Assembly (NCBI GenBank): GCA_964637885.1
Contig: CAZWXO010000003.1
Coordinates: 5-64,004 of the forward strand
Source of the DNA: an uncultured bacterium
Lineage (GTDB): Bacteria > Bacillota > CAZWXO01
DNA: 64,000 nt
Direction: 5' to 3'
Shown here: piece after piece, positions 5 through 64,000 of the stretch
Layout of the letters: each line of letters starts with the position of its first letter
Numbering within the stretch: position 1 is the stretch's first letter
Program-made: the position numbers and the translations under genes
Notes under the pieces: generated by a model
Seen by the model: only the letters and a program-made list of their open reading frames with translations
Database searches by the model: none
What the model was told of the DNA's origin: nothing

Positions 5-832
5 GTGCGCTTTATGACGGTGCGCAGTGATAAAGAGCTGCACCGGGCGGTATTGTCGGGCGGGATTTTTATCCTCTTTATGACGGGAGTCGCTTTTGTT
101 GTCGGGGCGTTGGCTAATGCCCTTTTTTATGAGTCGACGGGTAAAATTGCGATTGTGGCGTCGGAAGGAATTACGGACAAGATTATTCCGATGTTCATTA
201 AGGCGTATATGCCGCCTTGGTTCGGTGCCATTTTTCTGATTTCGATGCTGGCGGCGGCGATGAGCACTCTAAGCTCGATGTTTCATACGATGGGTTCGGC
301 TGCCGGCAGAGATTTGTACGAGGAAGTGCTGAACAGAAGGGGAAATTCGGTTTTTATTACCCGCAGCGGGGTGCTAGTCGTAATTCTTATGAGTTCGACG
401 ATTGCCTGGATGACGTCGTTGCCCCAGTTTGTCGATGTCGGCGATGCGATTATCGCCAAAGGGACAGCGCTGTTTTTTGCGCTGACGGCGGCGGCCTTTT
501 TGCCGGCTTTTGTCGGGGCGTTATTCATGCCCAAGATGCCGAAAGCTGCAGCCCTTTGGGGGATGGTGGCCGGATTTTCTGTTAGTTTTTTCTGGAATTT
601 TTTCGTCCACGCCAATGCTGCCAGCTTGCAGCTAAGCATGCTGCTGACTGGCAAAATTTCGTTGGTGGAAGGGACAGCTTTCTCTAAGTGGATGGTGGTT
701 GATTCGCTTTTTATCGCCTTGCCAACTTCGATTCTTGTCACTGCCATTGTGTGGGGGTTGATGAGGTCGAGGGGTGCTTTTGATGTGGATCCGGCTCATG
801 TGGCTAGATGCTTTGAGGGGATCAAGCGATGA
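5..832 (+). CDS. Sodium:solute symporter (SSS) family transporter, C-terminal fragment. The gene begins upstream of the window.
   Basis: The ORF is open at the window edge. It encodes multiple hydrophobic TM segments with SSS-like motifs and a C-terminal cytoplasmic tail. There is no start codon context at position 5. Confidence 0.55.
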   Translation: MRFMTVRSDKELHRAVLSGGIFILFMTGVAFVVGALANALFYESTGKIAIVASEGITDKIIPMFIKAYMPPWFGAIFLISMLAAAMSTLSSMFHTMGSAAGRDLYEEVLNRRGNSVFITRSGVLVVILMSSTIAWMTSLPQFVDVGDAIIAKGTALFFALTAAAFLPAFVGALFMPKMPKAAALWGMVAGFSVSFFWNFFVHANAASLQLSMLLTGKISLVEGTAFSKWMVVDSLFIALPTSILVTAIVWGLMRSRGAFDVDPAHVARCFEGIKR

Positions 833-985
833 CGTGCCTCTGGTGATTCTTTGATTCTGGCTTCAGGAAACATTAAGCTTAAACAGGAATCTCTTTTTCG
901 GCTCGATGTAGGGCCGGGGAAGGGATTCTTTGCATTGCGGCAGATTAAGAGGAGTGGCGCGGACAATTGTGAGGCGCTGTCAAAA

Positions 986-1591
986 TTATGGGCACAAGGA
1001 TTTAATAAGCAGGGCGCCGACTAAGGATGGCAGGGTCTCCATGGCGTTGTGGGTGGTGTTGAGGCTGTGGTTGCCCCATTGCCCGCCAAGGATTTCTTGG
1101 GAGAGGTTCTTCTGGGATATTTTTGTCACAGGGAGGAAAATGCTTTGGGTGCATTGGATAAAATCTTTGCGCAGATGTGAGATCTCGAGCGGGTTGAAGT
1201 GGAGTTTCTCAAGGTAAGGTGCCAGCGCCTCAAGGTCTGTGAATGTCAGGGGATCGACTCCAGCTTCGGCAAAGATGTCGAACAGAGACTGTCCAGGCAA
1301 GGGGACTGCCGCATCGATATAAACGATGTTATTGATTCGCGTGGGACAAAGTGCTGCAGCACCCGTAATTACCAAGCCTTCGTAGCCATGGCCGATGAGG
1401 GTGATTTTCTCATTTTCGAGGGCCAGAATTGCATCAAAAACACAATCGATGTGTTCGGATAAATCACTGGTGTGCTCATCGGGAAGGTCTACCACATAGC
1501 ATAAGTGCTCACTGTGTTCGATATTTTGGCAGACTTTATCCCAGGCGCTACCATCGCAGTTGCCGCCGCGTACTAGAACAAAAGTCGCCAT
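986..1591 (-). CDS. Alpha/beta-hydrolase fold protein of the methylesterase/SABP2-like family. The nucleophile motif reads GHGYEG instead of GHSxG.
   Basis: The N-terminal FVLVRGG...DL and the EKITLIGHGYEGLVITGA block align with the VILVGHSLGG core of plant-type methylesterases. An RBS AAGGTGAGG lies upstream of the ATG at 1591. Confidence 0.6.
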   Translation of the reverse strand: MATFVLVRGGNCDGSAWDKVCQNIEHSEHLCYVVDLPDEHTSDLSEHIDCVFDAILALENEKITLIGHGYEGLVITGAAALCPTRINNIVYIDAAVPLPGQSLFDIFAEAGVDPLTFTDLEALAPYLEKLHFNPLEISHLRKDFIQCTQSIFLPVTKISQKNLSQEILGGQWGNHSLNTTHNAMETLPSLVGALLIKSLCP

Positions 1592-1679: not shown

Positions 1680-3443
1680 TTACATGCCTGCTCTTTCTTT
1701 GACTTGCTGGACTAGCTCGGGATGCCTGTCGAGGATTTTTTTGGCGGCTTCGTCAGGGCTGGCACCACTCTTTAATAGCAGCATCATGGCGTTGGCAACC
1801 GACGTCGGCCAACTGAAAGCAGTCATGATTTTGACTAAGGTAGGGTGATCCTGTACTAGGCTGGTCCGAGCAACAGTGCGGACTCGTCTGTAGGCATTAA
1901 AGGCGCCTTTGGGGTCATCGAGAAACCGTAAATTCCATTCTTCCATCATCCAATGAGGTTCCCAGCCGATGGCGATGACCGGTTGTTGCCGAGAAATAGC
2001 ATTGCCGAGTGTTTGAAGCATGGCCTGGGTGTCGCTCTTGGTGATGGTCATGTCGATGTTGTACTTTGCAATTGCTTGCTCGGACCACATCCGCATTTTT
2101 TCGTATTCGATGCCAACGATTTGTTTGTTGAATTCGTTTTCTCTGCTCTTTAGGTCGCTGATGCTGCGGATCGAGAGGTAGGGGGGGATGACAAAACCCA
2201 TCCTGGCTTCGGTGTGATCGGCAAGAGCGACGAGTTTGTCCGGGTATTTCGCTAGCATGTCTTCGCTGAGCCCTTCAAAATAAGAAAAGGCGGCGTCGAG
2301 GTGGCCTTCAGCAATGGCATCGAATATTTCATCATCGGCCAAGGCTTCGACTTCGACGGGTTCGATCTGCTGCCCCGTAATCTGCAGATAGATGTGCTTG
2401 AAGATAAAGGTAGTGGCAATTTCTGAATCCCATGGGGGGTAAGCGATACGGATAACGCGCTGGTCGCTGATGGCTTGATAGAGTTTGTTGACGACTTTTT
2501 CAAGTCCGCCTGCTGCGTCGCTTAGCTCTTGCGCGGTGCCGGTCTGGTCTGCAGTGGTGGCACTGACTTCTTGGCTGGCAGCGGCAGCCTGGGCGGTGAT
2601 GGTGGCGACTTCAACAAGATCTTCTCGAACTTGGCTGACGCTCTTTCCTAAATCAGCTGCAGTGAGGCGAATCGATGATACGGCTGTGGCAGATTCTTCT
2701 GCTTGGTCAGTTATCTTTCCGAAAAGTTCAAAAAGTTCCCCGAGGGCTTTTTGTTGCTCGCTGGTGGCCTCCGCAGAAGCATCGGCAGAGAGGTTGGCTT
2801 TTTCCGTTTCCCGGAGGACTTCGGAAATTAATTCTTCGATGCGTTTGGAGGAGTGCATGGTGCTTTCAGCTAACTTGCGAATCTCGTCAGCGACAACGGC
2901 GAAACCACGACCTTGCTCTCCGGCACGGGCGGCTTCGATGGCAGCGTTAAGCGCGAGTAGATTAGTTTGACCGGCAATATTCCGAATTGTGTCAACGATG
3001 CTGCGGATTTCGCTGGATTTGCCGGCGAGAGTTTCCATACCTCCCCGCATTTGTGCCACGGCTGAGTCGGTGGTTTCCATCTGCAGTCGCTGGGACTGGA
3101 CGGTGGCTTCACCCGCTTTAATCATGCTCAGTACTTGGTTGGTTATTTTTTCTGTGGTATCGATGCTTGTGTCTAGTTCGGCGAGCCTCTCGCTGGCGTG
3201 GCCGATGTTTTGTCTGGAATTCTCGGCGTGGCGGGCAATTTCAGTACTTCCCGCGGCTATTTGTTGCATAGCTGCCGCGATTTGGGTGACAGCGCTGCTG
3301 ACACTTTGAGCAGAAAATTCGAAATGGCGGACTAGGGATATGATTGTTGTGGCAAGTCCGGCTACTTTGTTGCGGATCGTGGTATCCTGCGACTCATTTT
3401 TTAAAATAACTGGGTCAGGTCGGGGATTGCGGAAGAATTTCAT
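1680..3443 (-). CDS. Soluble methyl-accepting chemotaxis protein. The MCP signalling domain is N-terminal and an OpuAC-like glycine-betaine/quaternary-amine binding domain is C-terminal.
   Basis: The highly conserved MCP signalling hairpin is present ([38 protein letters not shown]). The C-terminal ~280 aa carry the OpuAC WEPHW motif ([12 protein letters not shown]). No TM helix is evident. The likely start is the ATG at 3441-3443 (MKFFRNPRP) preceded by GAGGAG, rather than the longest ORF. Confidence 0.8.
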
Positions 3444-3632
3444 AATTAATCTCCTCATTTTAAACAAATGGTAGCATTCGGTACGCATAGTATACAATTA
3501 TTCGATACAATCTTTCAACTGATAGAGAATCGCTTTTTTCGAATAAAGATTTGTTAATAATCTGTTGCTTGGATTTATTTGTGCAAAGTCCAAGCTTCTG
3601 CTATGCTTAAACGGTGATAAAGCTATGAGGAG

Positions 3633-5430: not shown

Positions 5431-5733
5431 ATGGAAATTAAAATCAGTGACGCTGCTGCCGAGCGGATTGCACTCAAGGGAAATTCAGTTACTTTGGTGA
5501 TGCTGGCAAAAATGTGTTGAGGGGGCGGTACGTCTTATATTCGGTCCGTGCGACCGGGTGCGCCTTTTCGAAATAAAGAAAGTTATCAGCTTCAGGATGT
5601 AAGCGGTGTCAGCGTATATATTGCGGAGGATTTTAAATGGCCGGATGATGGGGTAATTACCATCAAACTGGCGAATTATTTAATCTTTAAGCTGCTCTAT
5701 GTTTCACCTGAGGCCGTAGGAGTGTACCGTTAG
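5431..5733 (+). CDS. HesB/IscA-like small protein with an in-frame UGA at 5518-5520. It is a candidate selenoprotein of the HesB-like selenoprotein type.
   Basis: ATG 5431 is preceded by GGGAGGTAAAG. MEIKISDAAAERIALKG...LVMLAKMC-[TGA]-GGGTSY aligns across the UGA with IscA MSITLSDSAAARV...GVRTSGCSGMAY, with Sec at the position of the conserved Cys. The frame stays open for 71 more codons to TAG 5731-5733. The track's ORF 5548..5733 is the post-UGA portion of this gene. Confidence 0.5.
5538..5560 (+). promoter_or_regulatory. Candidate bacterial SECIS-like hairpin 17 nt downstream of the in-frame UGA.
   Basis: UAUUCGGUC-CGUGC-GACCGGGUG forms a 9-bp stem including G.U pairs, with a 5-nt loop containing GU. 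Position and size fit a bSECIS. The fold was not verified computationally. Confidence 0.3.
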
Positions 5734-6342: not shown

Positions 6343-6445
6343 TTTGGGTGATAAAAGTAGATTAGCTGGGTTTTTCGTGAATTGCCAAGGTTTGCGTTTA
6401 AATATCGAGGATATAAGTGGTAAAATTATTTCGAACAATCGGGAG

Positions 6446-7492
6446 ATGAGTTTGCAGATGAATTCGGCTTTACCTTCGGGAAAACTACCCGGGAAGGTGC
6501 TTCAAGAGGAAATATTGCAAAAAGTCCGAATGGCCAGTCGTCCGGAGCTGATTGTCGGGCCGGGTCTGGGTCTGGACTGTGCGGTCCTGAAGTGCGGCAG
6601 CGGGTATTGCGTTGCTTCGATGGATCCGATCACCGGGGCGACTGCGCAGGCAGGAACCTTGGCGATTCAGGTGACGGCCAATGATGTCGCCGCCTGCGGT
6701 GTGGAACCGATGGCTATTTTTATGACTATTTTGGTGCCACCTGGAACTACGACCAATCAAATCAGTGAGATAGCCCAGCAGGCGGCGACGGAAGCCCAGC
6801 GCCTGAATTTGGCTATTGCCGGAGGGCATACCGAGGTCACCAGTGCGGTGACTCGTCCTGTTGTTGTGACTACGGGAATCGGTTATACCGAAGAGATTAT
6901 GCCCGGGAGCGCTGCGGTGCGGCCTGGTGATTGTTTGTGCATGACGAAAGCGATCGCTATGGAGGGAACGGCCATCCTGGCTGCTGATTTTGCGCCAAAG
7001 TTGCGGGAATTGGGCATAAGTGAAGCGGTGATTAAGTCTGGGCAGGCTTTGGGCGAACACTTAAGCGTTGTCCGAGAAGGAATATTGGCCCGTAAATTCG
7101 GTGCGATCGCGATGCATGATGCGACTGAGGGAGGGCTTTGGGGTGCTGTCGAGGAAATGTGTGCTGCTGGTGGTTGCGGTGTACGCGTCTGGCAGGAGCG
7201 GGTGCCGCTACGCCTGGAGAGCAGTGTTATTTGCGAGGCACTAGGAGTGGATCCGTATAGTTTGCTTTCCTCGGGGTCGATGTTGGTGGTTGTCCGCCAG
7301 GATGTCGAAGGCTTTCTGGGGCAGATGCGCGAGGCGGAGATTGAGACGACGCACATTGGGGAGTTTCTCCAAGGGGAGAGCCGGGTTATAATAAAAAATG
7401 GCGAGGAATTTCCCTTAACGGGGCCGCCTCGAGATGAGATATATCGAATCCTAGAAATACTTGCAAATGAGGAGGCTGTCGAAAATGCTTGA
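6446..7492 (+). CDS. AIR-synthase-related (PurM/HypE/ThiL-like superfamily) protein.
   Basis: PurM-like N- and C-domains are present (DCAVL...[15 protein letters not shown]). There is no HypE C-terminal PRIC motif and no SelD N-terminal Cys/Sec motif. The start is ATG 6446 or 6458, and the longest ORF begins at 6344. Confidence 0.65.
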
Positions 7493-8759
7493 CATCAGGT
7501 TTGTTCGGGACAATCCGGAAAAGGTCTTGGCGGCGATGAGGTTGCGCAATGCGGAAATTAATCTGGATGATTTTTTGGCGTGGGAGTCGGACCGTCGGGA
7601 GATAATTCGCCAGGTGGAAGAGATGAAGGCGACGCGGAACCGGGAGTCGGAAGAAGTTGCCCGGATAAAAAAAGCCAAGGGTAACGCTGAGGAAATCATT
7701 CTGGAGATGCGACGCTTAGGCGAGGCTATTGCCGGGCAGGATGACAAGCTGCGAGATGTCGAAGGCAAGATGCAGAACTTTTTGATGACGCTTCCCAATC
7801 TTCCCCATGAATCTGTTCCCCACGGAATTGATGAGAGCGACAATGTCGAGCTGCGTCGCATCGGACAGGTGCCAAAGTTAAGCTTTACTCCCAAACCACA
7901 TTGGGATATTGGCGAGGCCCTGGGGATTTTTGATTTCGAGCGCGGGAGCAAGGTTTCGGGAGCGCGTTTTACTTTTTATCGTGGTCTGGGGGCTAAATTG
8001 GAGCGGGCTCTGATTAGCTTTATGTTGGACATGCATACCAAAAAACATGGCTATGTGGAGCTGATGCCTCCATACTTGGTCAACGCCACGAGCATGATGG
8101 GCACGGGGCAGCTTCCTAAGTTTGAGGATGACGCTTTTAAGTGCGAGCGAGAGGGATTGTATCTAATTCCGACGGCTGAGGTGCCGGTTACAAATTATCA
8201 CCGGGATGAGATTCTCGAAGAGGATCAGCTGACGATTAAATATTGCGCTTATAGTGCGTGTTTTCGTGCCGAGGCTGGTGCGGCGGGTCGCGATACCAGG
8301 GGCCTGATTCGGCAGCATCAGTTTAATAAAGTGGAGCTTGTTAAGTTTGCCCGCCCAGAGGATTCGTATCAAGAGCTGGAGAAATTGACGCAGGATGCGG
8401 AGAATATTCTGCAGGCTTTGGGTCTGGCTTACCGAGTTGTGGCACTATCTTCAGGCGATATGGGTTTTGCTTCGGCAAAGACCTACGATATTGAAGTGTG
8501 GCTGCCAAGTTTCGACTGTTATCGGGAGATTTCCTCTTGTTCTAATTTCGAAGATTTTCAGGCGCGCAGGGCCAATATCAGGTATCGGCGCAATGATAAC
8601 GGGAAGACAGCGTTTTTGCATACATTAAATGGCTCCGGAGTTGCAATCGGCAGAACTGTGGCTGCCATTTTGGAAAATTATCAACAGGAGGACGGTAGCG
8701 TTCTGATTCCTAAGGCATTGCAGCATTATATGGGTAATGTGGAGCGCATGACTATTTAG
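7485..8759 (+). CDS. serS: Seryl-tRNA synthetase.
   Basis: [14 protein letters not shown] is the canonical SerS N-terminus, and class II motifs are present ([21 protein letters not shown]). An RBS GAGGAGG lies 7 nt upstream. The gene overlaps the upstream gene by 8 nt, and no T-box leader is present. Confidence 0.9.
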
Positions 8760-10329: not shown

Positions 10330-10525
10330 AAAGAGATGAGCCAGAGGTCGCGAGAAGTAAGAGTAATATTCGCAAGGGGAGGCACCCGATGAGCGGATAT
10401 GAAAGGACTTTTCGCCGAAGCTGAGGTTTGTGCCTTCAAACCAAGGTTGGGCATGTATCGAATAGATGCATGACTGTCGCTTACACCATTCCCAAAGAGT
10501 GTAAGGGAAGCGCTGCTCATTCAAA
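10330..10525 (+). ncRNA. Lysine riboswitch (L-box) in the lysA leader.
   Basis: Conserved L-box blocks are present: AGAGGTCGCGAGAAGTAAGAGTA, GGGGAGGCACC, CGCCGAAGC, and ATGCATGACTGTCGC near the 3' end. P1 pairs GAGATGAGC with GCTCATTC. Confidence 0.7.
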
Positions 10526-10609: not shown

Positions 10610-10641
10610 AATAAAATATTACATAAAAGGGGATGTTAGGA

Positions 10642-12015
10642 ATGCATTTACGCGGAACAATGGAGATCAATGGAGCTGGAAATCTGAGTATCGGTGGCTG
10701 TGATACGGTGATGTTGGCAAAAAAGTATGGCACGCCACTGTATGTAGTTGACGAGCAAGGCATTAGGGAAAACTGTCGGCGACTTAGTTTTGCTCTGGCA
10801 AAACTACAGGTGCCGGCGCGGATTATTTATGCCGGCAAGGCGTTTTTAACCTTGGCGGTTTGCCGTATCATGCAAGAAGAGGGGATGGGGCTGGACCTAG
10901 TCTCTGGAGGCGAGCTCCACACTGCTGTGGCGGCAAAGTTTCCCATGGAAAAGGTATGTTTTCATGGGAACAACAAGAGTTATGAAGAATTGGAGCTGGC
11001 AATCGCTTCGGGAGTTGGTCGAATCGTTGTCGATAACTATTATGAACTTGAAATGCTTGGGCGGATAGCTTCACATGCTGGAGTTATGGCGGATATTTTG
11101 ATTCGTGTCACGCCGGGGGTTTCTGCGCATACCCACGAGTATATTCAGACGGGACAAGAAGATTCCAAGTTCGGGTTCGGGCTGGGGAGCAATCAGGCCC
11201 GAGAAGCGGCGCTTAAGGCATTGTCGATGCCGGCTATCCGTTTACATGGTTTTCATTGTCATATTGGCTCGCAGATATTTAATGAGGAATCCTTTGAGCT
11301 TGCTATCGATATTATGACGGATTTTATTCGCGAGATTCAAATTGAGACCGAATTTGTCACGAGAGAGCTTAATCTGGGTGGAGGCTGGGGTATCCGCTAT
11401 GTTGAGGGGGATAATCCGATGCCTTTGGAAGATTACGTCAGCTTTTTGGCGCAGGCTACTCAGATCAATTGTCAAGAGAAAGGCCTGGAGCAACCGTTGC
11501 TTATCTTCGAACCGGGGCGCGCTTTGGTTGGGGAAATGGGTACGACCTTGTATACTGTCGGGGCGATGAAGGATGTTGTCGGGCATCGGCGGTACCTTTC
11601 CGTGGATGGTGGAATGGGGGACAATCCTCGCTATGCTCTGTATCAGGCGGAGTACGAAGCCGAGCTGGTGACCAAGATTGACCAGCCCCACGATGACAGT
11701 TTTTGTATTGTGGGCAAGTGTTGCGAGTCTGGCGACGTTGTCATTAAAGAAATATCACTGCCATGCGCTGAGGCAGGGGATATCTTAGCTGTTTTTTGTA
11801 CCGGCGCCTATAATTATTCGATGTCCAGCAATTATAACCGCTTACCGCGACCCGCCGCTGTCCTTGTCGAAGGTGGCGAGGCTTCCTTGATTGTTCGGCG
11901 GGAGACCTACGATGATTTGCTGCGGAATGATATTTTACCGGAGCGCTTAGGATTTGTTCATAACCCGGATTTGGCGATTGACTGCGAGGAAGAATTGACT
12001 GAAGTTGCCTTATAA
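10642..12015 (+). CDS. lysA: Diaminopimelate decarboxylase.
   Basis: PLP fold-III decarboxylase motifs are present (NLGGGWGI, IFEPGRALVGEMG, CESGD). An RBS AAAGGGGA lies 8 nt upstream of ATG 10642. The longest ORF starts at 10633. Confidence 0.9.
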   Translation: MHLRGTMEINGAGNLSIGGCDTVMLAKKYGTPLYVVDEQGIRENCRRLSFALAKLQVPARIIYAGKAFLTLAVCRIMQEEGMGLDLVSGGELHTAVAAKFPMEKVCFHGNNKSYEELELAIASGVGRIVVDNYYELEMLGRIASHAGVMADILIRVTPGVSAHTHEYIQTGQEDSKFGFGLGSNQAREAALKALSMPAIRLHGFHCHIGSQIFNEESFELAIDIMTDFIREIQIETEFVTRELNLGGGWGIRYVEGDNPMPLEDYVSFLAQATQINCQEKGLEQPLLIFEPGRALVGEMGTTLYTVGAMKDVVGHRRYLSVDGGMGDNPRYALYQAEYEAELVTKIDQPHDDSFCIVGKCCESGDVVIKEISLPCAEAGDILAVFCTGAYNYSMSSNYNRLPRPAAVLVEGGEASLIVRRETYDDLLRNDILPERLGFVHNPDLAIDCEEELTEVAL

Positions 12016-15389: not shown

Positions 15390-16565
15390 TTGCTTAGATT
15401 GATGAAGCGATATTGCATCTTTTGTCTCATCGGTTTGTTGTCAGTCACTGCCATCGCAGGTTGCGGTAGTAATGGTGAAGAGGCGGACAGTGTTTTTTCA
15501 GGCGACAGTTTAGGCATTGCCGTTTTTTATGATAATGGTGCTGACACGGATAACTCTGATGTCAATCTTGCGGTGGCGCGGGGTGCGAAGCTGGCTGCGG
15601 GTGTTTTTGCCGACGCCGGCACCTATAGTATTGCCTTAAGCTTTGCGGGGAGGCGAGATTGGGATCAAGAAAGTTGTGTCGCTCCGGCTGAAGATTGGTT
15701 ACGACGCAAGCAAATTTCCGCGGTAATTCTTGCTCCTGGGACGGAGCTTCATTCCAAACTTAAAGTTTTTTTAAGCAAGCGAATGATTCCGATTATCTAT
15801 TTGGGTGAAACTGAGATTAAGAATTACGAGGATAACGAGATTTTCATGGGCGGTGAAGCTAAGAGCTCGTCAGCGGTGATGGCGAAATTTTTAGCTAATT
15901 ATATGAAGTACGAAAATATCGTCGTTCTTGGAAGGATTAACTCGCTTCATGCTCGACAAGAAGCGACTTTTCTTCGAAAACGCTTCAATCAGGAAAATCC
16001 GAAGGGTCAGGTTGTCGAGTTGCGTTTTTCGCAGACTACGCGGCAATTTGGGGATAAGATTAAGATCATAGCAAGGATGCAGCCCCAGGCGACATGTTTG
16101 GTGGGTGACGATGCGGAGCTGTTAGGACAATTCGCTGCCGAAGCCTTGCAGTCCGGAAAACCGCAAAATCTGGTCTTGGGATCTTCGGTGGATTTGGTGA
16201 CATTTGCCGAGGCTGCCGGTCCGGCCTCGGATCAGTGTTACGTTATCCGCGCTTATGACGGGAAAATGTCCCTTACCCGGCTTTCTAATTTGTTTAACGA
16301 AAGCTATGAGATGGTTTTTGCGAGCAAGCCTGGCAAGCTCGAGGGCCTCGCTTTCGACGCATTTATGATTATTCGTGAAGGTTGCTTAACCAAGGGGAGT
16401 ATTGATTCCAAAGATTTGCTCGACTATCTCCATAATTTGGAGGGATATTCGGGGGCTTCTGGAATATATGCCAACGACGGGAAAAGCGTTTTGTTGCGCA
16501 GCATGTTGGTAATTAAGCATGTCCATGATTTGCCGGAAGAGGTTGTGGCGGTTATCGATCCTTAA
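15390..16565 (+). CDS. Lipoprotein. It is a divergent type-I periplasmic binding protein, LivJ-like.
   Basis: A lipobox (AIAGC) is present. The PBP1-like composition shows weak similarity to the downstream Liv SBP. It is the first gene of the liv cluster. Confidence 0.5.
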   Translation: MLRLMKRYCIFCLIGLLSVTAIAGCGSNGEEADSVFSGDSLGIAVFYDNGADTDNSDVNLAVARGAKLAAGVFADAGTYSIALSFAGRRDWDQESCVAPAEDWLRRKQISAVILAPGTELHSKLKVFLSKRMIPIIYLGETEIKNYEDNEIFMGGEAKSSSAVMAKFLANYMKYENIVVLGRINSLHARQEATFLRKRFNQENPKGQVVELRFSQTTRQFGDKIKIIARMQPQATCLVGDDAELLGQFAAEALQSGKPQNLVLGSSVDLVTFAEAAGPASDQCYVIRAYDGKMSLTRLSNLFNESYEMVFASKPGKLEGLAFDAFMIIREGCLTKGSIDSKDLLDYLHNLEGYSGASGIYANDGKSVLLRSMLVIKHVHDLPEEVVAVIDP

Positions 16566-16670
16566 AGAGGGACTGGCATTGTTGTTAAGCGCTATGGCGC
16601 CTGACATAGTAGACAAGGGGATGTAGCACGGTAGCAAAGCTCAAGGAAATATGCAGGAGGGAAGAAAAAA

Positions 16671-17855
16671 ATGAAAAAATTTTTAGCTCTCATGACAACA
16701 ATTGTGATGGTTTCCGGGATGTTGCTGTCCGGTTGCGGCGGCGGTGGTGGCGATGTTGAAAGTGAAACTCCGATGGGTAATCCTGAGGGGGATGTCATCG
16801 TTGTCGGCGTTTACGAGCCATTGACAGGTGACAAGGCTGCCGGTGGTCAGATGACGGTTGACGGGATGAAACTTGCCAACGAACTATATCCTACCGTGGA
16901 AGTCAATGGTGTGGAGAAAGAAGTCAAGTTAGTCATTGTCGATAACAAGAGTGACCAAGCTGAGGCGACAACGGCTGTTGCCCGACTTATCGATCAGGAA
17001 AAAGCAAATGTTATCCTTGGTTCCTATGGCAGCGCCCTTTGCATGGCAGCTGGCGATACGATTAAAAGCGCGGGTGTCCCGGCTATTGGTTGTTCACCCA
17101 CAAACCCATTGGTAACCGAGGGTAACCCTTGGTATTTCCGAGTTTGCTTTATTGATCCTTTCCAAGGGACTGTTTTAGCTAATTACGCGACTGATACGCT
17201 GCAGGCAAAAACTGCCGCGATGCTGGTCTGTAATGGCAATGCCTACTCGGTTGGATTAGCTAATTACTTCAAAGAAGCTTTCATCGCCAACGGCGGCGAA
17301 ATCGTTGAAGAGCAGGCCTATCAGACGGGTGACCAGGATTTCACAGCTCAACTCAATACTATTAAGCAAGCTGCGCCAGATGTAATTTTATGCCCTGGTG
17401 AGTATGCTGAAGTGGGACTAGCATTGAAGCAGGCTCGTGAGCTTGGCATCGAGACGCCTTTCATGGGCGGCGATACTGTCGACGTCCCCGAGTTCTTGGA
17501 GTTTGGTAAATTAGTTGAAGGGACAACTGTCAGCACGCATTTCGATGCTAATGCAACTGTGACGGAAGAGACTACTACCTTTATTAACGCCTTTAAAGCG
17601 GCCTTCCCAGACAAAGAGCCTAGTGCTTTTGCCGCACTCGGTTACGATGCGTATTTGTTGGCCCTGGATGCGATAAAGCGCGCTGGTTCTGCCGATAGTG
17701 ATAAAATCACTGGAGCCTTGGCAATGACAGAGGGCTTTATGGGAGCGACCGGTATTATTACTCTTGATTCAGAGCGCAATGCTATTAAATCCGCTGTGAT
17801 CAAACAAGTCAAAGACGGCAAGTGGGTCTTTACTGCTACTGTCGAACCAAAATAA
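16671..17855 (+). CDS. livJ: Branched-chain amino acid ABC transporter substrate-binding lipoprotein.
   Basis: It has a lipoprotein signal (LLSGCGGGGG) and LivJ/K-type PBP1 blocks (VVGVYEPLTGDKAAGG, ILGSYGSA). Confidence 0.8.
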   Translation: MKKFLALMTTIVMVSGMLLSGCGGGGGDVESETPMGNPEGDVIVVGVYEPLTGDKAAGGQMTVDGMKLANELYPTVEVNGVEKEVKLVIVDNKSDQAEATTAVARLIDQEKANVILGSYGSALCMAAGDTIKSAGVPAIGCSPTNPLVTEGNPWYFRVCFIDPFQGTVLANYATDTLQAKTAAMLVCNGNAYSVGLANYFKEAFIANGGEIVEEQAYQTGDQDFTAQLNTIKQAAPDVILCPGEYAEVGLALKQARELGIETPFMGGDTVDVPEFLEFGKLVEGTTVSTHFDANATVTEETTTFINAFKAAFPDKEPSAFAALGYDAYLLALDAIKRAGSADSDKITGALAMTEGFMGATGIITLDSERNAIKSAVIKQVKDGKWVFTATVEPK

Positions 17856-17960
17856 GCAAATTTTTCCCCTTTGTCTTTTCTGGCATTCCCCCGTTCAAGT
17901 GAGCGGGGGAATGCATTGTTATTAATGTGACGAAATATGTTTGTAGTAAGGATGGTCTAA

Positions 17961-18851
17961 ATGAATCCTGAAATGTTTTTTACGAGCCTAGCTAACGGGA
18001 TATCGCTGGGTAGTCTCTACGCCTTGGTGGCTATCGGTTATACAATGGTCTATGGAATATTGCGCCTGATCAACTTTGCTCATGGTGACTTGTTGATGAT
18101 TGCGGCCTATTCCGTCTTTTTCATGAATGCGGCACTTTTCCCCTGGTGGGCAGCGGCGATTCTCGCAGTCCTGATTACGGGCGTGCTCGGGGTGTCAATT
18201 GAGAAAATGGCCTACCGGCCGCTGCGGACCTCGCCCCGTATTTCTGTTCTTATTTCAGCTATCGGAGTCTCATTTTTCATCGAAAATTTGGGCTTGGTCA
18301 TTTTTAGTGGGGTACCAAGGCCTTTCTATACTCCGGATTTTTTTACCAGAGAAATTGTTATCGCCGGTGTTTCTGTTACCAGTCTTACTTTTTACATCAT
18401 TATTGTCACGGCAGTGATGCTGGGACTATTAGTGTATCTCCTAAAATACACGAAGACGGGCATGGCGATGCGGGCACTGTCGGTCAGTTTTGATACTGCT
18501 AGCTTGATGGCAATTAATGTCAATAGGATTATAGCGATTACCTTTGCTATCGGCAGTATTTTGGCAGCTGTGGGCGGAATTATGTGGGCACTGAAGTATC
18601 CTCAGATACACCCGCTGATGGGGATATTGCCTGGGCTTAAATGCTTTACGGCAGCAGTGCTTGGTGGAATCGGGAATGTCACGGGAGCCGTGATTGGTGG
18701 TTTCTTGCTGGGGCTGGTCGAGATCATGGCAATTACTTTTTTGCCTGCTTTGTCCGGTTATCGCGATGCCTTCGCATTTATAATTTTAATTGTGATTCTT
18801 CTGCTGAAGCCCTCGGGTATTATGGGCAAAGAAGTGACGGAGAAGGTGTGA
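17961..18851 (+). CDS. livH: Branched-chain amino acid ABC transporter permease.
   Basis: The 296-aa polytopic protein shows LivH-type conservation. Confidence 0.85.
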   Translation: MNPEMFFTSLANGISLGSLYALVAIGYTMVYGILRLINFAHGDLLMIAAYSVFFMNAALFPWWAAAILAVLITGVLGVSIEKMAYRPLRTSPRISVLISAIGVSFFIENLGLVIFSGVPRPFYTPDFFTREIVIAGVSVTSLTFYIIIVTAVMLGLLVYLLKYTKTGMAMRALSVSFDTASLMAINVNRIIAITFAIGSILAAVGGIMWALKYPQIHPLMGILPGLKCFTAAVLGGIGNVTGAVIGGFLLGLVEIMAITFLPALSGYRDAFAFIILIVILLLKPSGIMGKEVTEKV

Positions 18852-18852
18852 A

Positions 18853-19917
18853 ATGAAAAAACAAGATTATTTTTTAGCAGGCGCTGCCTTAATCTGTCTG
18901 ATTGGTTTTTTGTTTTGGTCGGGAGGCCAGCTTGATGGTTATAAAATTCGCATTCTTAATATCTGCGCGATCAATATCGTGCTCGCGTTGGGACTTAACA
19001 TAATCAACGGGTTTACGGGTTTGTTTTCCCTTGGACATGCAGGCTTCATGGCTATCGGAGCATATACTTCGGCCTTGCTGACAATGCCGGCATCGGCTAA
19101 ACAGATTAATTTCTTTATCAAGCCGATAGTGCCGTGGCTGGCGGAAGTGGAGCTGGGATTTTTGCCGGCGATGATCATTGCGGTACTTGTAACGGTCTTT
19201 TTTGCGGCCTTGATTGGGATTCCGGTTTTGCGGCTCAGGGACGATTATCTAGCAATCGCCTCGTTGGGATTTGCCGAAATTATTCGCATCGTACTGACTA
19301 ACACCCAGGGCCTGACTAATGGGGCGCTAGGACTTAAATCGATTCCCTCCTACACCAACTTGACATGGAGTTGGGGCGTCGCGGTTGCCGCGATTATCTT
19401 TACTGTTTTGCTGATTCGTAGCTCTTATGGGATGGCTTTCAAGGCGATTCGTGAAAATGAAATCGCCGCGGAGGCAATGGGGATAAATTTGTTTCGGCAT
19501 AAACTGATGGCGTTTTTGATCGGGTCGGCGATGGCAGGCCTCGGGGGCGCTTTGTACGCTAATCTTCTTACTTCGATTGAACCGGGCATCTTTAAGTTTG
19601 GATTTACCTTTCAAATATTGCTGATTGTTGTGCTGGGAGGGCTTGGGAGCATCTCGGGCTCGATTATAGCGGCGGTTGTTATCACGATTCTTTTGGAGTG
19701 GTTGCGTTTTGTCGAGTCGCCCATGGTGATTGGATCTTTTACCATCCCGGGGATTTCAGGGATGCGGATGGTTATATTTTCGGCCTTGCTGATGATGGTG
19801 ATCATCTTTTATCAGCGGGGATTTATGGGAAGTAGAGAACTGAGTTGGCAATTTTTTAAGGAGAAATATGGTCAGCTAAAAAAATTGCTCGGTGCGGCGC
19901 CAAGGGGGGAAGCATAA
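18853..19917 (+). CDS. livM: Branched-chain amino acid ABC transporter permease.
   Basis: The 354-aa polytopic protein has the LivM arrangement. Confidence 0.85.
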   Translation: MKKQDYFLAGAALICLIGFLFWSGGQLDGYKIRILNICAINIVLALGLNIINGFTGLFSLGHAGFMAIGAYTSALLTMPASAKQINFFIKPIVPWLAEVELGFLPAMIIAVLVTVFFAALIGIPVLRLRDDYLAIASLGFAEIIRIVLTNTQGLTNGALGLKSIPSYTNLTWSWGVAVAAIIFTVLLIRSSYGMAFKAIRENEIAAEAMGINLFRHKLMAFLIGSAMAGLGGALYANLLTSIEPGIFKFGFTFQILLIVVLGGLGSISGSIIAAVVITILLEWLRFVESPMVIGSFTIPGISGMRMVIFSALLMMVIIFYQRGFMGSRELSWQFFKEKYGQLKKLLGAAPRGEA

Positions 19918-19918
19918 G

Positions 19919-21401: not shown

Positions 21402-21428
21402 AGTGTCGAATTACGAGGATGTGAGATT

Positions 21429-23201: not shown

Positions 23202-23216
23202 AAAGAGAGGGGCAAG

Positions 23217-24011: not shown

Positions 24012-24033
24012 GAATTCAGGAGGTAGATTGTCG

Positions 24034-62300: not shown

Positions 62301-63365
62301 ATGATGGCAGAGAAAATTAAAGTACTTGTAGTGGATGATTCTGCTTTTATGCGCCGTGTGATCAGCGATATGGTGGCAACGGATAGTGGTATGGAAGTGG
62401 TCGGGATTGCTAGGGATGGCTTAGATGCAATTGATAAAGCCAAAAAACTTCATCCGGATGTAATTACACTCGATATCGAGATGCCACGCATGAATGGGCT
62501 TGAAGCCTTGGAGATTTTAACCGGCCAAATGAGGATACCAACGATAATGTTCAGCAGCCATACCAAGGAGGGCGCTGAAATAACATTGACTGCATTAGAA
62601 AAGGGTGCTTTTGATTTTCTGCCGAAGCCAGATAACGCATATTTTGCGCCGCTTGACCAAGTTCAGCGTGATCTAATTGACCGAATTCGCGGGATTAAAA
62701 AAGTAAACCTTGGCAATCTTGTCGCTCATAAGCCGATGGAGAGGAAGATTGTCCATGAAGATTTCAAGAGAGATGTTTTCACTGCTCCTAAAAACTTTAA
62801 AAAATTAGTCGCGATAGGAACCTCCACGGGAGGGCCACGAGCCTTGCAGGAAGTTGTGCCCTACATAAGTGGCAATATTGACGCATCGTTTTTAATTGTG
62901 CAGCACATGCCGCCTAATTTTACTAAATCTCTAGCGGAGCGTTTGAACGGCTTATCATCTCTTCAGGTAAAAGAAGCAGAGGATGGAGACGATATTATCC
63001 GAGGGAGAGTCTTGATTGCGCCAGGAAATTATCATATGCTAGCCGTAAAGAAATCTGATGGAGTGTACCAAGTTCGACTGGAGCAATCGCCCACGGTGGA
63101 AGGCCACCGTCCGTCGGCAACGGTAATGATGGATTCTGTCGCCAGGACTTTTGGTCCGGCAGCCATAGGAGTTATTCTGACCGGAATGGGTGGAGACGGC
63201 TCCGATGGCATGGTCAGCATCAAGAAAGCCGGCGGGCAAACTATCGCCGAGGATGAGTCGACGTGCGTAGTATTTGGTATGCCAGAAGTAGCAATTAAAA
63301 AGCAGGCTGTAGATTATATTGTTCCATTGCCCAAGGTTTCAGAAAAAATCAGCGGACTCGTATAG
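62301..63365 (+). CDS. cheB: Chemotaxis response regulator protein-glutamate methylesterase CheB.
   Basis: The receiver domain (VLVVDDSAFMRR) is followed by the methylesterase domain (GTSTGGPRAL, the catalytic Ser context). Confidence 0.9.
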   Translation: MMAEKIKVLVVDDSAFMRRVISDMVATDSGMEVVGIARDGLDAIDKAKKLHPDVITLDIEMPRMNGLEALEILTGQMRIPTIMFSSHTKEGAEITLTALEKGAFDFLPKPDNAYFAPLDQVQRDLIDRIRGIKKVNLGNLVAHKPMERKIVHEDFKRDVFTAPKNFKKLVAIGTSTGGPRALQEVVPYISGNIDASFLIVQHMPPNFTKSLAERLNGLSSLQVKEAEDGDDIIRGRVLIAPGNYHMLAVKKSDGVYQVRLEQSPTVEGHRPSATVMMDSVARTFGPAAIGVILTGMGGDGSDGMVSIKKAGGQTIAEDESTCVVFGMPEVAIKKQAVDYIVPLPKVSEKISGLV

Positions 63366-63382: not shown

Positions 63383-64000
63383 ATGGACTTATCACAATAC
63401 ATTGGCGTTTTTTTGGAAGAATCTGAGGAACATTTGCAATCCTTGAACGAGCATTTGTTAGAGCTGGAGAAATCTCCATCTTTGGAGACATTAGACGAAA
63501 TTTTTCGGTCAGCACATACTTTAAAAGGGATGGCTGCCACAATGGGCTTTGACGATGTCGCTAAGTTGACGCATCAGATGGAAAATGTTTTGCAAAAATT
63601 AAAAACCGGTGAAGTCGTCGTTACTTCTCAAGTTGTCGACGTTCTCTTTAAGTGTTTGGATAACTTGGAGAGCATGGTTCAACTAATCGCAAGTGGGTCT
63701 GAGGAAAAGACTGATATTAAAAGCTTAATGGATGCTTTGGCACTGATCGAAACCAACCAATCTCCAGCGGGTGTCGCGGTGGAAGTTGAGGAGGTGTCTG
63801 CTGGCGTTGCTCGCAATGAAGGTATTGACGAAAATCCTGCAACAGATGAGGCATTTGAGATTGATACAGCGGTGCTGGTTCTGAATCAGTATGAAGAGAA
63901 CATTATCTTTAAGGCTAAGCACAAGGGATTTAGAGCTTATCAGATAGCTGTTCGCCTGCAAGAAGGCTGTCTTTTAAAACAAGCTCGCGCTTTTATGGTG
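63383..64000 (+). CDS. cheA: Chemotaxis histidine kinase CheA, N-terminal part. It continues past the window end.
   Basis: The HPt domain carries the phosphorylatable His context FRSAHTLKGMAATMGF. An RBS GGAGGTGG lies 6 nt upstream. The frame is open to the window end. Confidence 0.85.
   Translation, partial: MDLSQYIGVFLEESEEHLQSLNEHLLELEKSPSLETLDEIFRSAHTLKGMAATMGFDDVAKLTHQMENVLQKLKTGEVVVTSQVVDVLFKCLDNLESMVQLIASGSEEKTDIKSLMDALALIETNQSPAGVAVEVEEVSAGVARNEGIDENPATDEAFEIDTAVLVLNQYEENIIFKAKHKGFRAYQIAVRLQEGCLLKQARAFMV

What the first reader, a model, noticed from the sequence alone, without database searches (positions are those of the whole stretch)
1680..3443. Cytoplasmic chemoreceptor with inverted architecture: MCP signalling domain first, OpuAC-type quaternary-amine binding domain last
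Most MCPs place the sensor N-terminal to the signalling hairpin and span the membrane. This protein starts with the signalling domain and ends in an OpuAC/ProX-like domain carrying the WEPHW motif, and no TM helix is apparent. That predicts a soluble sensor for betaine, choline, carnitine or a related compound that feeds the che cluster found later in the window. An ABC-transporter SBP domain used as a C-terminal chemoreceptor module is uncommon.
Basis: partly seen in the sequence, partly recalled or inferred. Interest (0 to 1): 0.55.

Follow-up and report, generated by a model that had tools for sequence, protein, structure and literature searches.

The report
Soluble chemoreceptor with C-terminal OpuAC sensor
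This gene encodes a membrane-free chemotaxis receptor with a binding domain at its tail that normally sits outside the cell on betaine/choline importers, so this uncultured bacterium probably steers its swimming by sensing such a compound inside its own cytoplasm; the layout is rare and unstudied but built from familiar parts.

Summary
Window 1680-3443 (- strand) is one 587-aa gene with a good ribosome-binding site. It has a Pfam MCPsignal domain (1.4e-37) followed by an OpuAC domain (8.8e-41). No hydrophobic segment could span a membrane and there is no signal peptide. AlphaFold2 models give a 308-residue helical hairpin (44 heptads), a six-residue linker, then a two-lobed fold matching Lactococcus OpuAC (TM 0.84). 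Two of the three cage tryptophans are kept and the third is Tyr (W338/Y388/W494). The His and the Pro-Gly-x-Gly loop that hold glycine betaine's carboxylate are replaced, so an onium-type ligand is likely but probably not classical high-affinity glycine betaine. Both halves are under strong purifying selection (dN/dS 0.06-0.08). The window also carries the fla/che operon (CheY, CheB, start of CheA).

The architecture is rare but not unique. There are 3 close clusters among 5.8 billion proteins, and at least 16 distant 50%-identity representatives, some in cultured Clostridia, soluble or anchored by two TM helices. None is characterised. In 16 of 17 fusion representatives the OpuAC domain starts exactly 160 residues after the hairpin tip, just past where ordinary receptors end. 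Verdict: a real, uncharacterised variant of a known kind, of moderate interest.

The parts
1680..3443 (-). Whole CDS, 587 aa: soluble MCP with a C-terminal OpuAC domain (stop codon included)
   Evidence: ORF list and sequence; Pfam MCPsignal + OpuAC; identical protein P0001/P0292 in public assemblies
3489..3518 (-). Sigma-70-like promoter candidate TTGAAA-N18-TATACT upstream of the gene
   Evidence: Consensus scan, 10 of 12 matches. The number of such sites in the region is no higher than in shuffles, so this is only a candidate
3451..3456 (-). Shine-Dalgarno GAGGAG, 7 nt before the ATG at 3443
   Evidence: Read directly from the sequence
2469..3395 (-). MCP signalling hairpin, aa 17-325: helix 17-173, turn at 174, helix 175-325 (308 residues = 44 heptads)
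   Evidence: AF2 full-length model, pLDDT 85.6; MCPsignal HMM; no net length difference in 96 of 208 long alignments to other MCPs
2901..2918 (-). Hairpin tip E176-Q-G-R-G-F181, within [32 protein letters not shown] (kinase/CheW-contact region)
   Evidence: Motif position; near-identical to the tips of T. maritima TM1143 and Tsr in PDB alignments
3249..3275 (-). N-arm methylation/deamidation consensus AAMQQIAAG (aa 57-65)
   Evidence: Pattern [ASTG]xx[EQ][EQ]xxA[ASTG]; invariant in the three orthologues
2556..2582 (-). C-arm methylation consensus AASQEVSAT (aa 288-296), 116 residues after the tip motif
2451..2468 (-). Six-residue linker S326-DQRV-I331 between the last helix and beta-strand 1 of OpuAC
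   Evidence: AF2 model; beta1 lies at tip+160 in 16 of 17 fusion representatives
1692..2450 (-). OpuAC-fold two-lobed binding domain, aa 332-584
   Evidence: Pfam OpuAC 8.8e-41; PDB 3L6G 2.2e-34; AF2 domain model pLDDT 91.8; Foldseek TM 0.84, rmsd 2.4 A to open L. lactis OpuAC
2430..2432 (-). Cage residue W338 (= W330 of L. lactis OpuAC, in YPPWDSE)
   Evidence: HMMER alignment to 7AHC/3L6G; conserved in SBP relatives
2280..2282 (-). Cage residue Y388 (aligned with W377 of L. lactis OpuAC); the following FEGLS replaces LPNTH, so the carboxylate-binding His becomes Ser393
1962..1964 (-). Cage residue W494 (= W484 of L. lactis OpuAC), first W of GWEPHW
   Evidence: role of W484 from PMC2861598
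2088..2114 (-). Loop G444-IEYEKMR-M452, replacing the GIEPGAG(V/I)M loop whose backbone amides bind the betaine carboxylate; one residue shorter and invariant in the three orthologues
   Evidence: role of G437/V438 from PMC2861598
52407..52772 (+). CheY-type single-domain response regulator inside the fla/che operon (presumed downstream pathway)
   Evidence: Pfam Response_reg 6.5e-32, next to FliY (CheC + FliN domains)
62301..63365 (+). CheB methylesterase (presumed adaptation enzyme for the receptor)
   Evidence: Pfam CheB_methylest 1.3e-63 + Response_reg
63383..64000 (+). 5' part of cheA (Hpt/P1 domain with the FRSAHTLKG motif), running off the window
   Evidence: Translation. The identification rests on the motif and the gene order, not on an HMM

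Best explanation
The gene encodes a soluble, cytoplasmic methyl-accepting chemotaxis protein.

Residues 17-325 form a complete 44-heptad antiparallel coiled-coil hairpin. By analogy with all MCPs, this dimerises into a four-helix bundle. Its tip (E176-F181) binds CheA/CheW, and its QQ (60-61) and QE (291-292) sites are deamidated, methylated and demethylated for adaptation.

A six-residue linker joins the end of the last helix to an OpuAC-type Venus-flytrap domain. This domain sits at the tip-distal end of the bundle, beside the free N-terminus. It keeps an aromatic cage (W338, Y388, W494) suited to a trimethylammonium or related onium head group. It has lost the His and the Pro-Gly-x-Gly loop that give classical OpuAC its tight grip on the glycine betaine carboxylate.

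I infer the following chain of events. A quaternary-amine-type compound that has been imported or made in the cytoplasm binds the cage and closes the two lobes. Lobe 1 is fixed to the C-terminal helix in a strictly conserved register, so closure changes helix packing at the top of the bundle. That change travels to the tip and alters CheA kinase activity, CheY phosphorylation and flagellar rotation through the fla/che operon in the same window.

Shown here: the architecture, the absence of a membrane anchor, the fold, the cage residues, the selective constraint, the conserved junction, and che/fla genes in the genome. Inferred: the ligand class, the direction of signalling, and incorporation into the receptor array.
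For: - Domains and order.
- No TM segment or signal peptide; the N-terminal 16 residues are disordered and a helix follows.
- Hairpin of 157 + 151 = 308 residues. Alignments to ordinary Bacillota-type MCPs run from just after their HAMP domain to 5 residues before their C-terminus with no net length change.
- Two methylation-consensus sites.
- OpuAC fold: pLDDT 91.8, TM 0.84 to 3L6G.
- W338/Y388/W494 align with the L. lactis Trp prism W330/W377/W484 (PMC2861598).
- OpuAC-family structures overwhelmingly bind quaternary amines (PMC10443332). Foldseek hits bind betaine, choline, TMAO, ergothioneine, DMSP and carnitine.
- Purifying selection on both halves, and pocket motifs invariant across orthologues down to 60% identity.
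- Beta1 of OpuAC lies at tip+160 in 16 of 17 fusion representatives, while 139 of 198 ordinary MCPs end at tip+159.
- CheY, FliY, CheB and CheA lie in a canonical dprA-topA-trmFO-xerC-hslVU-codY-fla/che arrangement.
- From established knowledge (Wuichet & Zhulin 2010), F1-type fla/che systems of Bacillota pair with 44H receptors.
Against:
- The carboxylate-binding His is Ser393, and the GIEPGAG loop is YEK-MRM, one residue shorter. The domain could therefore have moved to a different ligand class.
- Gene neighbourhoods of this protein and of distant fusions show no conserved betaine, choline or carnitine transport or catabolism genes.
- The 44H class was assigned from lengths and the model, not from class-specific HMMs.
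- Only one che locus is visible, so coupling to it is an assumption.
- The organism is uncultured.
Confidence: 0.6

Rival explanations
1. Same receptor and same signalling route, but the OpuAC-fold domain now recognises something other than a quaternary amine, such as an amino acid, a sulfonate or another cytoplasmic metabolite. The aromatic residues would be kept for structural reasons or for a different cation.
For: The His and the Gly-rich loop of the betaine site are replaced. New charged or aromatic residues (Y447, E448, K449, R451, W453) appear in that loop and are invariant in the orthologues. Other fusion clades have different pocket changes (first W to Y/F, His lost, loop QRRT). The OpuAC Pfam family also contains binders of amino acids and taurine according to PMC10443332 and PMC8050422.
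Against: All three cage positions remain aromatic and are invariant. The closest sequence and fold relatives are all onium-compound binders.
Confidence: 0.22
2. The OpuAC domain no longer binds a small molecule. It acts as a dimerisation, localisation or protein-docking module, for example docking to a transporter or a polar landmark, and the receptor serves as an array-building or signal-relay component.
For: Soluble receptors can depend on their C-terminus for polar localisation (TlpD, PMC13001251). Some distant fusions (P0273, P0173) have lost the aromatic cage altogether, and P0273 no longer matches MCPsignal. This shows the scaffold can persist without a canonical pocket.
Against: In this clade the cage and neighbouring pocket motifs are invariant at 60% overall identity, and dN/dS is as low as in the signalling domain. 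The domain is modelled as an intact two-lobed flytrap in the open form.
Confidence: 0.1
3. The protein is a genuine ligand-sensing MCP, but it feeds a chemosensory pathway other than flagellar chemotaxis (an alternative Che-like system elsewhere in the genome).
For: The gene lies about 49 kb from the nearest che gene (cheY at 52407) and about 59 kb from cheB/cheA, on the opposite strand, and is not in any che operon. Only 64 kb of the genome is visible.
Against: Its length class matches the F1-type fla/che system present in the window. MCP genes are normally scattered, and no second che cluster was seen.
Confidence: 0.07
4. Artefact: two adjacent genes (an MCP and a lipoprotein SBP) were joined by a frameshift or by MAG mis-assembly.
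For: None found. The idea was considered only because the window comes from a metagenome-assembled contig.
Against: The same uninterrupted ORF occurs in independent JGI, NCBI, ENA and Logan assemblies at 100, 84 and 60% identity. There is no remnant of a signal peptide or lipobox at the junction, whereas every standalone relative has one. The junction register is identical in 16 of 17 fusion representatives, including isolates. Both halves are under purifying selection.
Confidence: 0.01

Closest known systems
Helicobacter pylori TlpD (soluble MCP with a C-terminal CZB zinc-binding sensor)
   Same: No membrane segment. The signalling hairpin comes first and the sensor domain is attached to the C-terminal helix at the tip-distal end. 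Signalling runs the length of the coiled coil to the kinase interface (bioRxiv 10.64898/2026.01.16.699579; PMC13001251).
   Different: The sensor is a four-helix CZB domain that binds Zn and senses oxidants, not a two-lobed SBP fold. TlpD belongs to a different receptor lineage in Epsilonproteobacteria. No CZB match was found here.
Halobacterium salinarum CosT/CosB (binding-protein-dependent taxis to compatible osmolytes)
   Same: An OpuAC-family binding protein supplies the ligand specificity (glycine betaine, choline, carnitine) for a chemotaxis transducer (table in PMC8050422).
   Different: CosB is a separate extracellular lipoprotein that acts in trans on a transmembrane transducer. Here the OpuAC domain is covalently fused, cytoplasmic and C-terminal.
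OpuAC substrate-binding domains of the OpuA ABC importer (Lactococcus lactis 3L6G/3L6H; Bacillus subtilis 2B4L)
   Same: Best sequence and fold match (2e-34; TM 0.84). Same lobe order as the L. lactis domain. Cage positions W330/W377/W484 correspond to W338/Y388/W494, and the GW(x)PHW motif is shared.
   Different: No signal peptide or lipobox, and no permease partner. His becomes Ser and the PGAG loop is replaced. The location is cytoplasmic and the output is a kinase-control module, not transport.
dCache-type quaternary-amine chemoreceptors (S. meliloti McpX, P. aeruginosa PctD)
   Same: The predicted physiological output is the same: taxis governed by choline/betaine-type compounds (PMC10443332).
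   Different: Those are transmembrane receptors with periplasmic dCache sensors that read external concentrations. The folds are unrelated.
Uncharacterised MCPsignal-OpuAC fusion proteins of Clostridia (e.g. Geosporobacter subterraneus WP_110941632.1, Wukongibacter baidiensis WP_432664291.1)
   Same: Same domain order and exactly the same tip-to-OpuAC spacing (160 residues). Some are also soluble (P0158, P0159, P0177).
   Different: Only 24-33% identical. Most carry two N-terminal TM helices. Their pocket residues differ: first W to Y/F in one clade, W/W/W plus His kept in another. RefSeq names some of them 'glycine betaine ABC transporter substrate-binding protein', which their architecture contradicts.
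Thermotoga maritima soluble receptor Tm14 and TM1143 (44H-type signalling modules, PDB 3G67, 2CH7)
   Same: Same kind of long signalling hairpin, and the tip sequence is almost identical. Tm14 is also soluble.
   Different: Tm14 has no dedicated sensor domain.

Membership tests
Methyl-accepting chemotaxis proteins (Pfam PF00015 MCPsignal) | Match to the MCPsignal HMM above the gathering score | tested here: met
   129.7 bits against a cut-off of 34.6, aa 121-282
Methyl-accepting chemotaxis proteins (Pfam PF00015 MCPsignal) | Conserved hairpin-tip sequence (…[20 protein letters not shown]…) | tested here: met
   [32 protein letters not shown] at aa 162-193; near-identical to TM1143 and Tsr in PDB alignments
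Methyl-accepting chemotaxis proteins (Pfam PF00015 MCPsignal) | Long antiparallel coiled-coil hairpin with arms of matching length | tested here: met
   AF2 model: helix 17-173, turn, helix 175-325. This is a monomer model; the dimer was not modelled
Methyl-accepting chemotaxis proteins (Pfam PF00015 MCPsignal) | Methylation-site consensus on both arms | tested here: met
   AAMQQIAAG (57-65) and AASQEVSAT (288-296). Actual methylation was not testable
Methyl-accepting chemotaxis proteins (Pfam PF00015 MCPsignal) | Control of a CheA kinase through CheW | not testable with these tools
   CheA, CheB and CheY genes are in the window, but no interaction can be tested
44H length class of MCP signalling domains (Alexander & Zhulin 2007) | 44 heptads (308 residues) arranged symmetrically about the tip | tested here: inconclusive
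   Helix lengths 157 + 151 = 308. There is zero net length difference to 96 of 208 MCP hits, with most other differences clustering at multiples of 7 (-7: 42, -14: 18). The tip-to-end distance matches the 159 seen in 139 of 198 MCPs. Class-specific HMMs were not available
OpuAC/ProX-type substrate-binding proteins (Pfam PF04069) | Match to the OpuAC HMM above the gathering score, over its full length | tested here: met
   140.6 bits against a cut-off of 21.2, profile positions 3-256 of 257
OpuAC/ProX-type substrate-binding proteins (Pfam PF04069) | Two-lobed type II periplasmic-binding-protein fold | tested here: met
   pLDDT 91.8; Foldseek 3L6G TM 0.84, rmsd 2.4 A; the listed top hits are OpuAC-family structures or sensor-precursor binding proteins of the same fold
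OpuAC/ProX-type substrate-binding proteins (Pfam PF04069) | Aromatic cage for the onium head group | tested here: met
   W338, Y388 and W494 align with W330, W377 and W484 of L. lactis OpuAC. One Trp is replaced by Tyr. The geometry was not measured
Glycine-betaine-specific OpuAC (B. subtilis / L. lactis type) | His side chain and Gly-(Val/Ile) backbone amides of the GI(E/D)PG(A/S)G loop hydrogen-bonding the carboxylate | tested here: not met
   The His of WLPNTH is Ser393. The loop is GIEYEK-MRM, one residue shorter. Roles are taken from PMC2861598
ABC-transporter substrate-binding protein (functional class) | Signal peptide or lipobox, extracytoplasmic location, and a cognate permease/ATPase | tested here: not met
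   There is no signal sequence; the domain follows a cytoplasmic coiled coil. Nearly all standalone relatives in the alignment show an N-terminal hydrophobic leader, most with a Cys lipobox. There are no opu permease or ATPase genes nearby
Cytoplasmic (soluble) chemoreceptors with a C-terminal sensor (Collins, Lacal & Ottemann 2014; e.g. TlpD) | No TM helix, and the sensor domain lies C-terminal to the signalling domain | tested here: met
TlpD/CZB family | CZB zinc-binding domain | tested here: not met
   No CZB match in the Pfam scan down to E = 1. This is an analogue, not a member

The most novel reading that the evidence does not exclude
The receptor is a low-affinity internal gauge of the cell's own pool of a compatible solute or methyl donor (a betaine-type compound). 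The pool would be filled by transporters or by metabolism. Taxis would then follow what the cell has actually accumulated rather than the outside concentration. This would be transport- or metabolism-dependent chemotaxis (or osmotaxis) read by a direct metabolite sensor. Loss of the carboxylate-clamping residues would be an adaptation to millimolar cytoplasmic concentrations. The invariant 160-residue tip-to-domain register would define a new, rigid way of coupling a Venus-flytrap closure to the C-terminal helix of a chemoreceptor.
Probability: 0.25. Interest if true: 0.7.

Novelty: new variant of a known kind. Interest (0 to 1): 0.45.

Why it matters
Nearly all characterised chemoreceptors read the outside of the cell. 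The few well-studied soluble receptors sense redox state, oxygen, metals or oxidants. A cytoplasmic receptor with an SBP-type flytrap for an onium compound would add a new sensor class to internal chemosensing. It would link compatible-solute or methylated-amine physiology directly to motility.

The fusion family also offers a natural system for asking how lobe closure is converted into a coiled-coil signal. Its junction is conserved to the residue, and it has both soluble and membrane-tethered members.

OpuAC-family binding proteins are already the basis of engineered acetylcholine and nicotine sensors (PDB entries seen), so naturally cytoplasmic versions may be useful scaffolds.

On the practical side, RefSeq labels some members 'glycine betaine ABC transporter substrate-binding protein'. 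That name is misleading for a protein with this architecture.

Tried and rejected
- **GTDB species-representative scan.** Only the MCP half matched. No orthologue of the fusion was recovered in the scanned species-representative genomes, so the organism could not be named this way.
- **Taxonomy from SerRS.** The best named relatives are only 64-71% identical (Dehalobacterium, Formimonas, Desulfitobacteriaceae, Negativicutes). The source is an uncultured Bacillota lineage and cannot be placed more precisely.
- **Guilt by association.** Five fusion loci show no shared betaine, choline or carnitine genes. An SSF symporter, a class-III aminotransferase and a sigma-54 activator recur near the close orthologues. 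However, the aminotransferase/activator block is a 5.8-kb indel absent from the window, so I did not treat it as functionally linked.
- **Literature.** Searches for chemoreceptor + OpuAC, PF04069 + chemotaxis and MCPsignal + OpuAC found no paper describing the fusion. The review of cytoplasmic chemoreceptors (PMC4248653) is not held, so it is cited from memory only.
- **AFDB fold search.** This library was unavailable for the full-length model.
- **Single versus multiple origin of the fusion.** A neighbour-joining tree of OpuAC domains puts the three fusion clades outside the standalone SBP clade, but it is too crude to decide. The identical junction register favours one origin or a strict mechanical constraint.
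- **TM1143 alignment.** HMMER placed 14 residues of gaps in low-similarity coiled coil. I did not take this as evidence for a longer class, because full-length alignments to many MCPs are gap-neutral.
- **His numbering.** PMC2861598 calls the carboxylate-binding His 'H392', but my count of the 7AHC chain puts the His of WLPNTH at 382. I rely on the motif, not the number.
- **Assembly artefact.** Rejected; see the rival explanations.
Full report
**1. What is there**

The - strand carries an ORF from 3497 to 1680. The first in-frame ATG is at 3443, 7 nt downstream of GAGGAG, and gives a 587-aa protein. A sigma-70-like TTGAAA-N18-TATACT lies at 3518-3489. It is only a candidate, since such matches are no more frequent there than in shuffled sequence.

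Pfam finds MCPsignal at aa 121-282 (E 1.4e-37) and OpuAC at aa 331-572 (E 8.8e-41), both far above the gathering scores. NCBIfam gives only partial matches, to MCP equivalogs for the first half and to a choline-binding SBP subfamily for the second. The 'WEPHW' motif is G493-WEPHW498.

**2. No membrane anchor and no export signal**

The most hydrophobic 19-residue window scores 1.32 on the Kyte-Doolittle scale. It lies inside the globular OpuAC domain. The N-terminal region peaks at 1.13. The same scan finds one or two clear TM helices (2.0-2.7) in distant relatives, so the method can detect them.

The full-length AlphaFold2 model (pLDDT 85.6) has 16 disordered N-terminal residues. It then has helix 17-173, a turn at 174, helix 175-325, a six-residue linker, and an alpha/beta domain at 332-584.

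**3. The signalling half is a complete, ordinary module**

The two helices total 308 residues, which is 44 heptads. In the exhaustive search, Bacillus-type 562-aa receptors align to query residues 23-325 at their residues 255-557. That stretch runs from just after their HAMP domain to five residues before their end, with no net length difference. Locally, 96 of 208 long alignments have zero net length difference, and most of the other differences cluster at multiples of seven.

The tip sequence ([32 protein letters not shown]) is nearly identical to those of TM1143 and Tsr. Two methylation-consensus sites are present, AAMQQIAAG and AASQEVSAT. I call it 44H-like on length. Class HMMs were not available.

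**4. The sensor half is an OpuAC fold with a partly remodelled pocket**

The best solved relatives are L. lactis OpuAC (3L6G, 2.2e-34) and B. subtilis OpuAC (2B4L, circularly permuted). The domain model (pLDDT 91.8) superposes on open L. lactis OpuAC with TM 0.84 and rmsd 2.4 A. The following hits bind glycine betaine, choline, TMAO, ergothioneine, DMSP and carnitine.

According to PMC2861598, L. lactis OpuAC holds the trimethylammonium group in a prism that includes W377 and W484. It holds the carboxylate with a His and the backbone of G437/V438. The third prism Trp is assigned to W330 from my recollection of the homologous B. subtilis prism (Trp72/Trp178/Trp225) mapped through the alignment.

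In the alignment the query compares with L. lactis OpuAC as follows:

| L. lactis OpuAC | Query | Change |
|---|---|---|
| W330 | W338 | kept |
| W377 | Y388 | Trp to Tyr |
| W484 | W494 | kept |
| His of AWLPNTH | Ser393 (motif SYFEGLS) | lost |
| GIEPGAGVM loop | GIEYEK-MRM | replaced, one residue shorter |

All 28 standalone relatives found in the 5.8-billion-protein database keep a Gly-rich GI(E/D)-x-x-G-(I/V/M)-M loop here (GIEPGAG in most). Nearly all show an N-terminal hydrophobic leader, most with a Cys lipobox. The three fused orthologues keep the altered motifs invariant.

My reading is that an onium head group is still the most likely ligand feature, but the rest of the ligand, or the affinity, has changed. 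This is inference. No binding was tested, and I had no coordinates to measure.

**5. It is real and constrained**

The protein occurs at 100% identity in JGI and NCBI assemblies, the latter on a 64,015-bp contig that is evidently the window's source. It occurs at 84% identity on a 244-kb JGI contig and at 60% in ENA/Logan assemblies. Against the 84% orthologue, dN/dS is 0.079 for the MCP part and 0.062 for the OpuAC part.

**6. How common the architecture is**

The word-indexed search found only those three clusters with both domains. No GTDB species representative has an orthologue. The exhaustive HMMER scan of 1.84 billion representatives found further proteins that align in a single stretch across both domains at 24-33% identity. 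These are P0149-P0159 (excluding P0004), P0161, P0173, P0177, P0188 and P0273.

Nine of ten tested carry both Pfam domains above threshold, and P0158 does so in precomputed data. Most have two N-terminal TM helices separated by a very short loop. Since both termini of such a hairpin lie on the same side as the signalling domain, their OpuAC domain is inferred to be cytoplasmic too. P0158, P0159 and P0177 are soluble.

Members occur in cultured Clostridia, namely Geosporobacter subterraneus and Wukongibacter baidiensis. There RefSeq names them either MCP or 'glycine betaine ABC transporter substrate-binding protein'. The count of about 17 representatives at 50% identity is a lower bound. Only the top 150 hits are listed, and weaker fusions would rank below single-domain MCPs.

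I found no paper that describes the fusion.

**7. A conserved junction**

In 16 of 17 fusion representatives the C-arm methylation motif lies 116 residues after the tip motif. The first beta-strand of OpuAC lies 44 residues after that, at tip+160. This holds whatever the clade or membrane anchoring. Among ordinary MCPs in the hit set, 139 of 198 end at tip+159.

The flytrap is therefore welded, without a spare linker, onto the exact end of a full 44-heptad module, and the register has not drifted at 25% sequence identity. That points to one old fusion event, to a strict mechanical requirement for coupling, or to both. It argues against a passively tethered domain. P0188 is the exception, about 21 residues shorter.

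Pocket residues differ between the fusion clades:
- One clade keeps W/W/W plus His.
- One has Y/F at the first position and has lost the His.
- Two sequences (P0273, P0173) have lost the cage altogether.

**8. Context**

The organism is an uncultured member of Bacillota. Its SerRS is at most 71% identical to anything other than the sister MAG, and the named neighbours are Dehalobacterium, Formimonas, Desulfitobacteriaceae and Negativicutes.

From about 30 kb onward the window holds the classic dprA-topA-trmFO-xerC-hslVU-codY-fla/che arrangement. It includes FlgB, FliF, FliG, FliI, FlgE, FliY (CheC + FliN domains), CheY, FliO/P/R, FlhB, FlhA, FlhF, FlhG, PilZ proteins and CheB. The Hpt domain of CheA runs off the end. 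So 'feeds the che cluster' is plausible. From established knowledge, F1-type fla/che systems use 44H receptors.

The immediate neighbours give no hint about the ligand:
- an SSF symporter;
- a 201-aa alpha/beta-hydrolase-like protein;
- oligoendopeptidase F;
- a uracil-DNA glycosylase family protein.

**9. Mechanism proposed**

The protein dimerises into a four-helix bundle. The tip engages CheA/CheW, probably within or beside the array of membrane receptors. The OpuAC domains sit at the opposite end, next to the N-termini. Binding of a cytoplasmic onium compound closes the lobes. Lobe 1 continues directly from the C-terminal helix, so closure changes helix packing or register, and this propagates to the tip. 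TlpD is now known structurally to signal from its C-terminal CZB domain over about 140 A in this way (bioRxiv 10.64898/2026.01.16.699579). Adaptation would use CheB (present in the window) and, presumably, CheR and CheD elsewhere.

The anatomy is shown. The ligand class, the sign of the response and array membership are inferred.

**10. Comparison and verdict**

The protein is a member of the MCP family, and its sensor belongs to the OpuAC fold family. It is not an ABC-transporter SBP, because it has no signal sequence and no permease partner. It does not meet the glycine-betaine-specific pocket definition.

- In layout it works like TlpD-type soluble receptors.
- In ligand logic it resembles CosB/CosT osmolyte taxis, where an OpuAC protein acts in trans from outside the cell (PMC8050422).
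- It combines the two in a way that has not been described experimentally.

It is therefore a new variant of a known kind. It is real, rare, conserved and testable, but assembled from well-understood modules and already visible, unremarked, in public databases. Interest is moderate at 0.45. The residue-exact junction conservation and the possibility of an internal solute-pool gauge are the points most worth following.

Noticed in passing
window 1680-3443 and proteins P0149-P0161, P0177: In 16 of 17 MCP-OpuAC fusion representatives the first beta-strand of OpuAC starts exactly 160 residues after the hairpin-tip motif. Most ordinary MCPs in the hit set end at tip+159. The junction register is conserved to the residue at about 25% sequence identity.
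   Followed up: partly
proteins P0298 (WP_110941632.1, Geosporobacter subterraneus), P0303 (WP_432664291.1, Wukongibacter baidiensis), P0154: RefSeq/GenBank name these MCPsignal + OpuAC fusion proteins 'glycine betaine ABC transporter substrate-binding protein'. Their architecture (cytoplasmic, fused to a signalling hairpin) contradicts that name.
   Followed up: partly
proteins P0273 and P0173 (distant fusion relatives): These have two TM helices and an OpuAC-like domain, but all cage aromatics are lost (E/G, R, A/K at the three positions) and the MCP tip motif is degenerate. P0273 no longer matches MCPsignal. They may be decayed or repurposed receptors.
   Followed up: no
window 986-1591 (-): A 201-aa alpha/beta-hydrolase-like ORF lies 88 nt downstream of the receptor gene on the same strand and is conserved in the 84% sister contig. 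It is short, matches BioH/esterase models only weakly, and has GHGYEG where the GxSxG nucleophile motif is expected. It may be a non-catalytic relative, and it could be co-transcribed with the receptor.
   Followed up: partly
window 832-986 versus L021 12458-18248: The sister contig has a 5.8-kb block between the SSF symporter and the hydrolase that is absent from the window. The block holds a bPH_7 protein, an NhaC-type antiporter, a class-III aminotransferase and a sigma-54 activator with a KDD_N domain. This is an indel between two otherwise collinear genomes (about 80% nt identity).
   Followed up: partly
window 10334-10523 (+) and 10633-12015 (+): A lysine riboswitch (106 bits) lies upstream of diaminopimelate decarboxylase lysA (TIGR01048, 473 bits). 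This is an ordinary arrangement.
   Followed up: yes
window 5548-5733, 6344-7492, 7485-8759 (+): A 61-aa CC/Se-motif family (seleno)protein relative lies near an AIR-synthase-fold protein. The latter matches HypE, SelD and ThiL models only below their cut-offs. Seryl-tRNA synthetase follows. This may be a selenium-related neighbourhood.
   Followed up: no
window 60479-61606 and 61610-62290 (+): Directly after flhF/flhG in the fla/che operon there is a second MinD/ParA-type ATPase carrying an N-terminal PilZN (YcgR-N) domain. A YcgR-like PilZN + PilZ protein follows. This suggests c-di-GMP input to flagellar placement or braking.
   Followed up: no
window 15390-27002 (+): This stretch holds two Peripla_BP_6 binding proteins and a branched-chain-amino-acid-type ABC transporter. 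It also holds a PAS + sigma-54 activator, an SDR, and the two subunits of the glycine-cleavage P-protein. It looks like an amino-acid uptake and catabolism block between the receptor gene and the flagellar region.
   Followed up: no
PMC2861598 versus PDB 7AHC chain numbering: The paper names the carboxylate-binding histidine H392. In the 7AHC sequence as aligned here, the His of the conserved WLPNTH motif counts as 382 and residue 392 is Ser. W377, G437, V438 and W484 agree with the paper. This is possibly a typo in the paper.
   Followed up: partly
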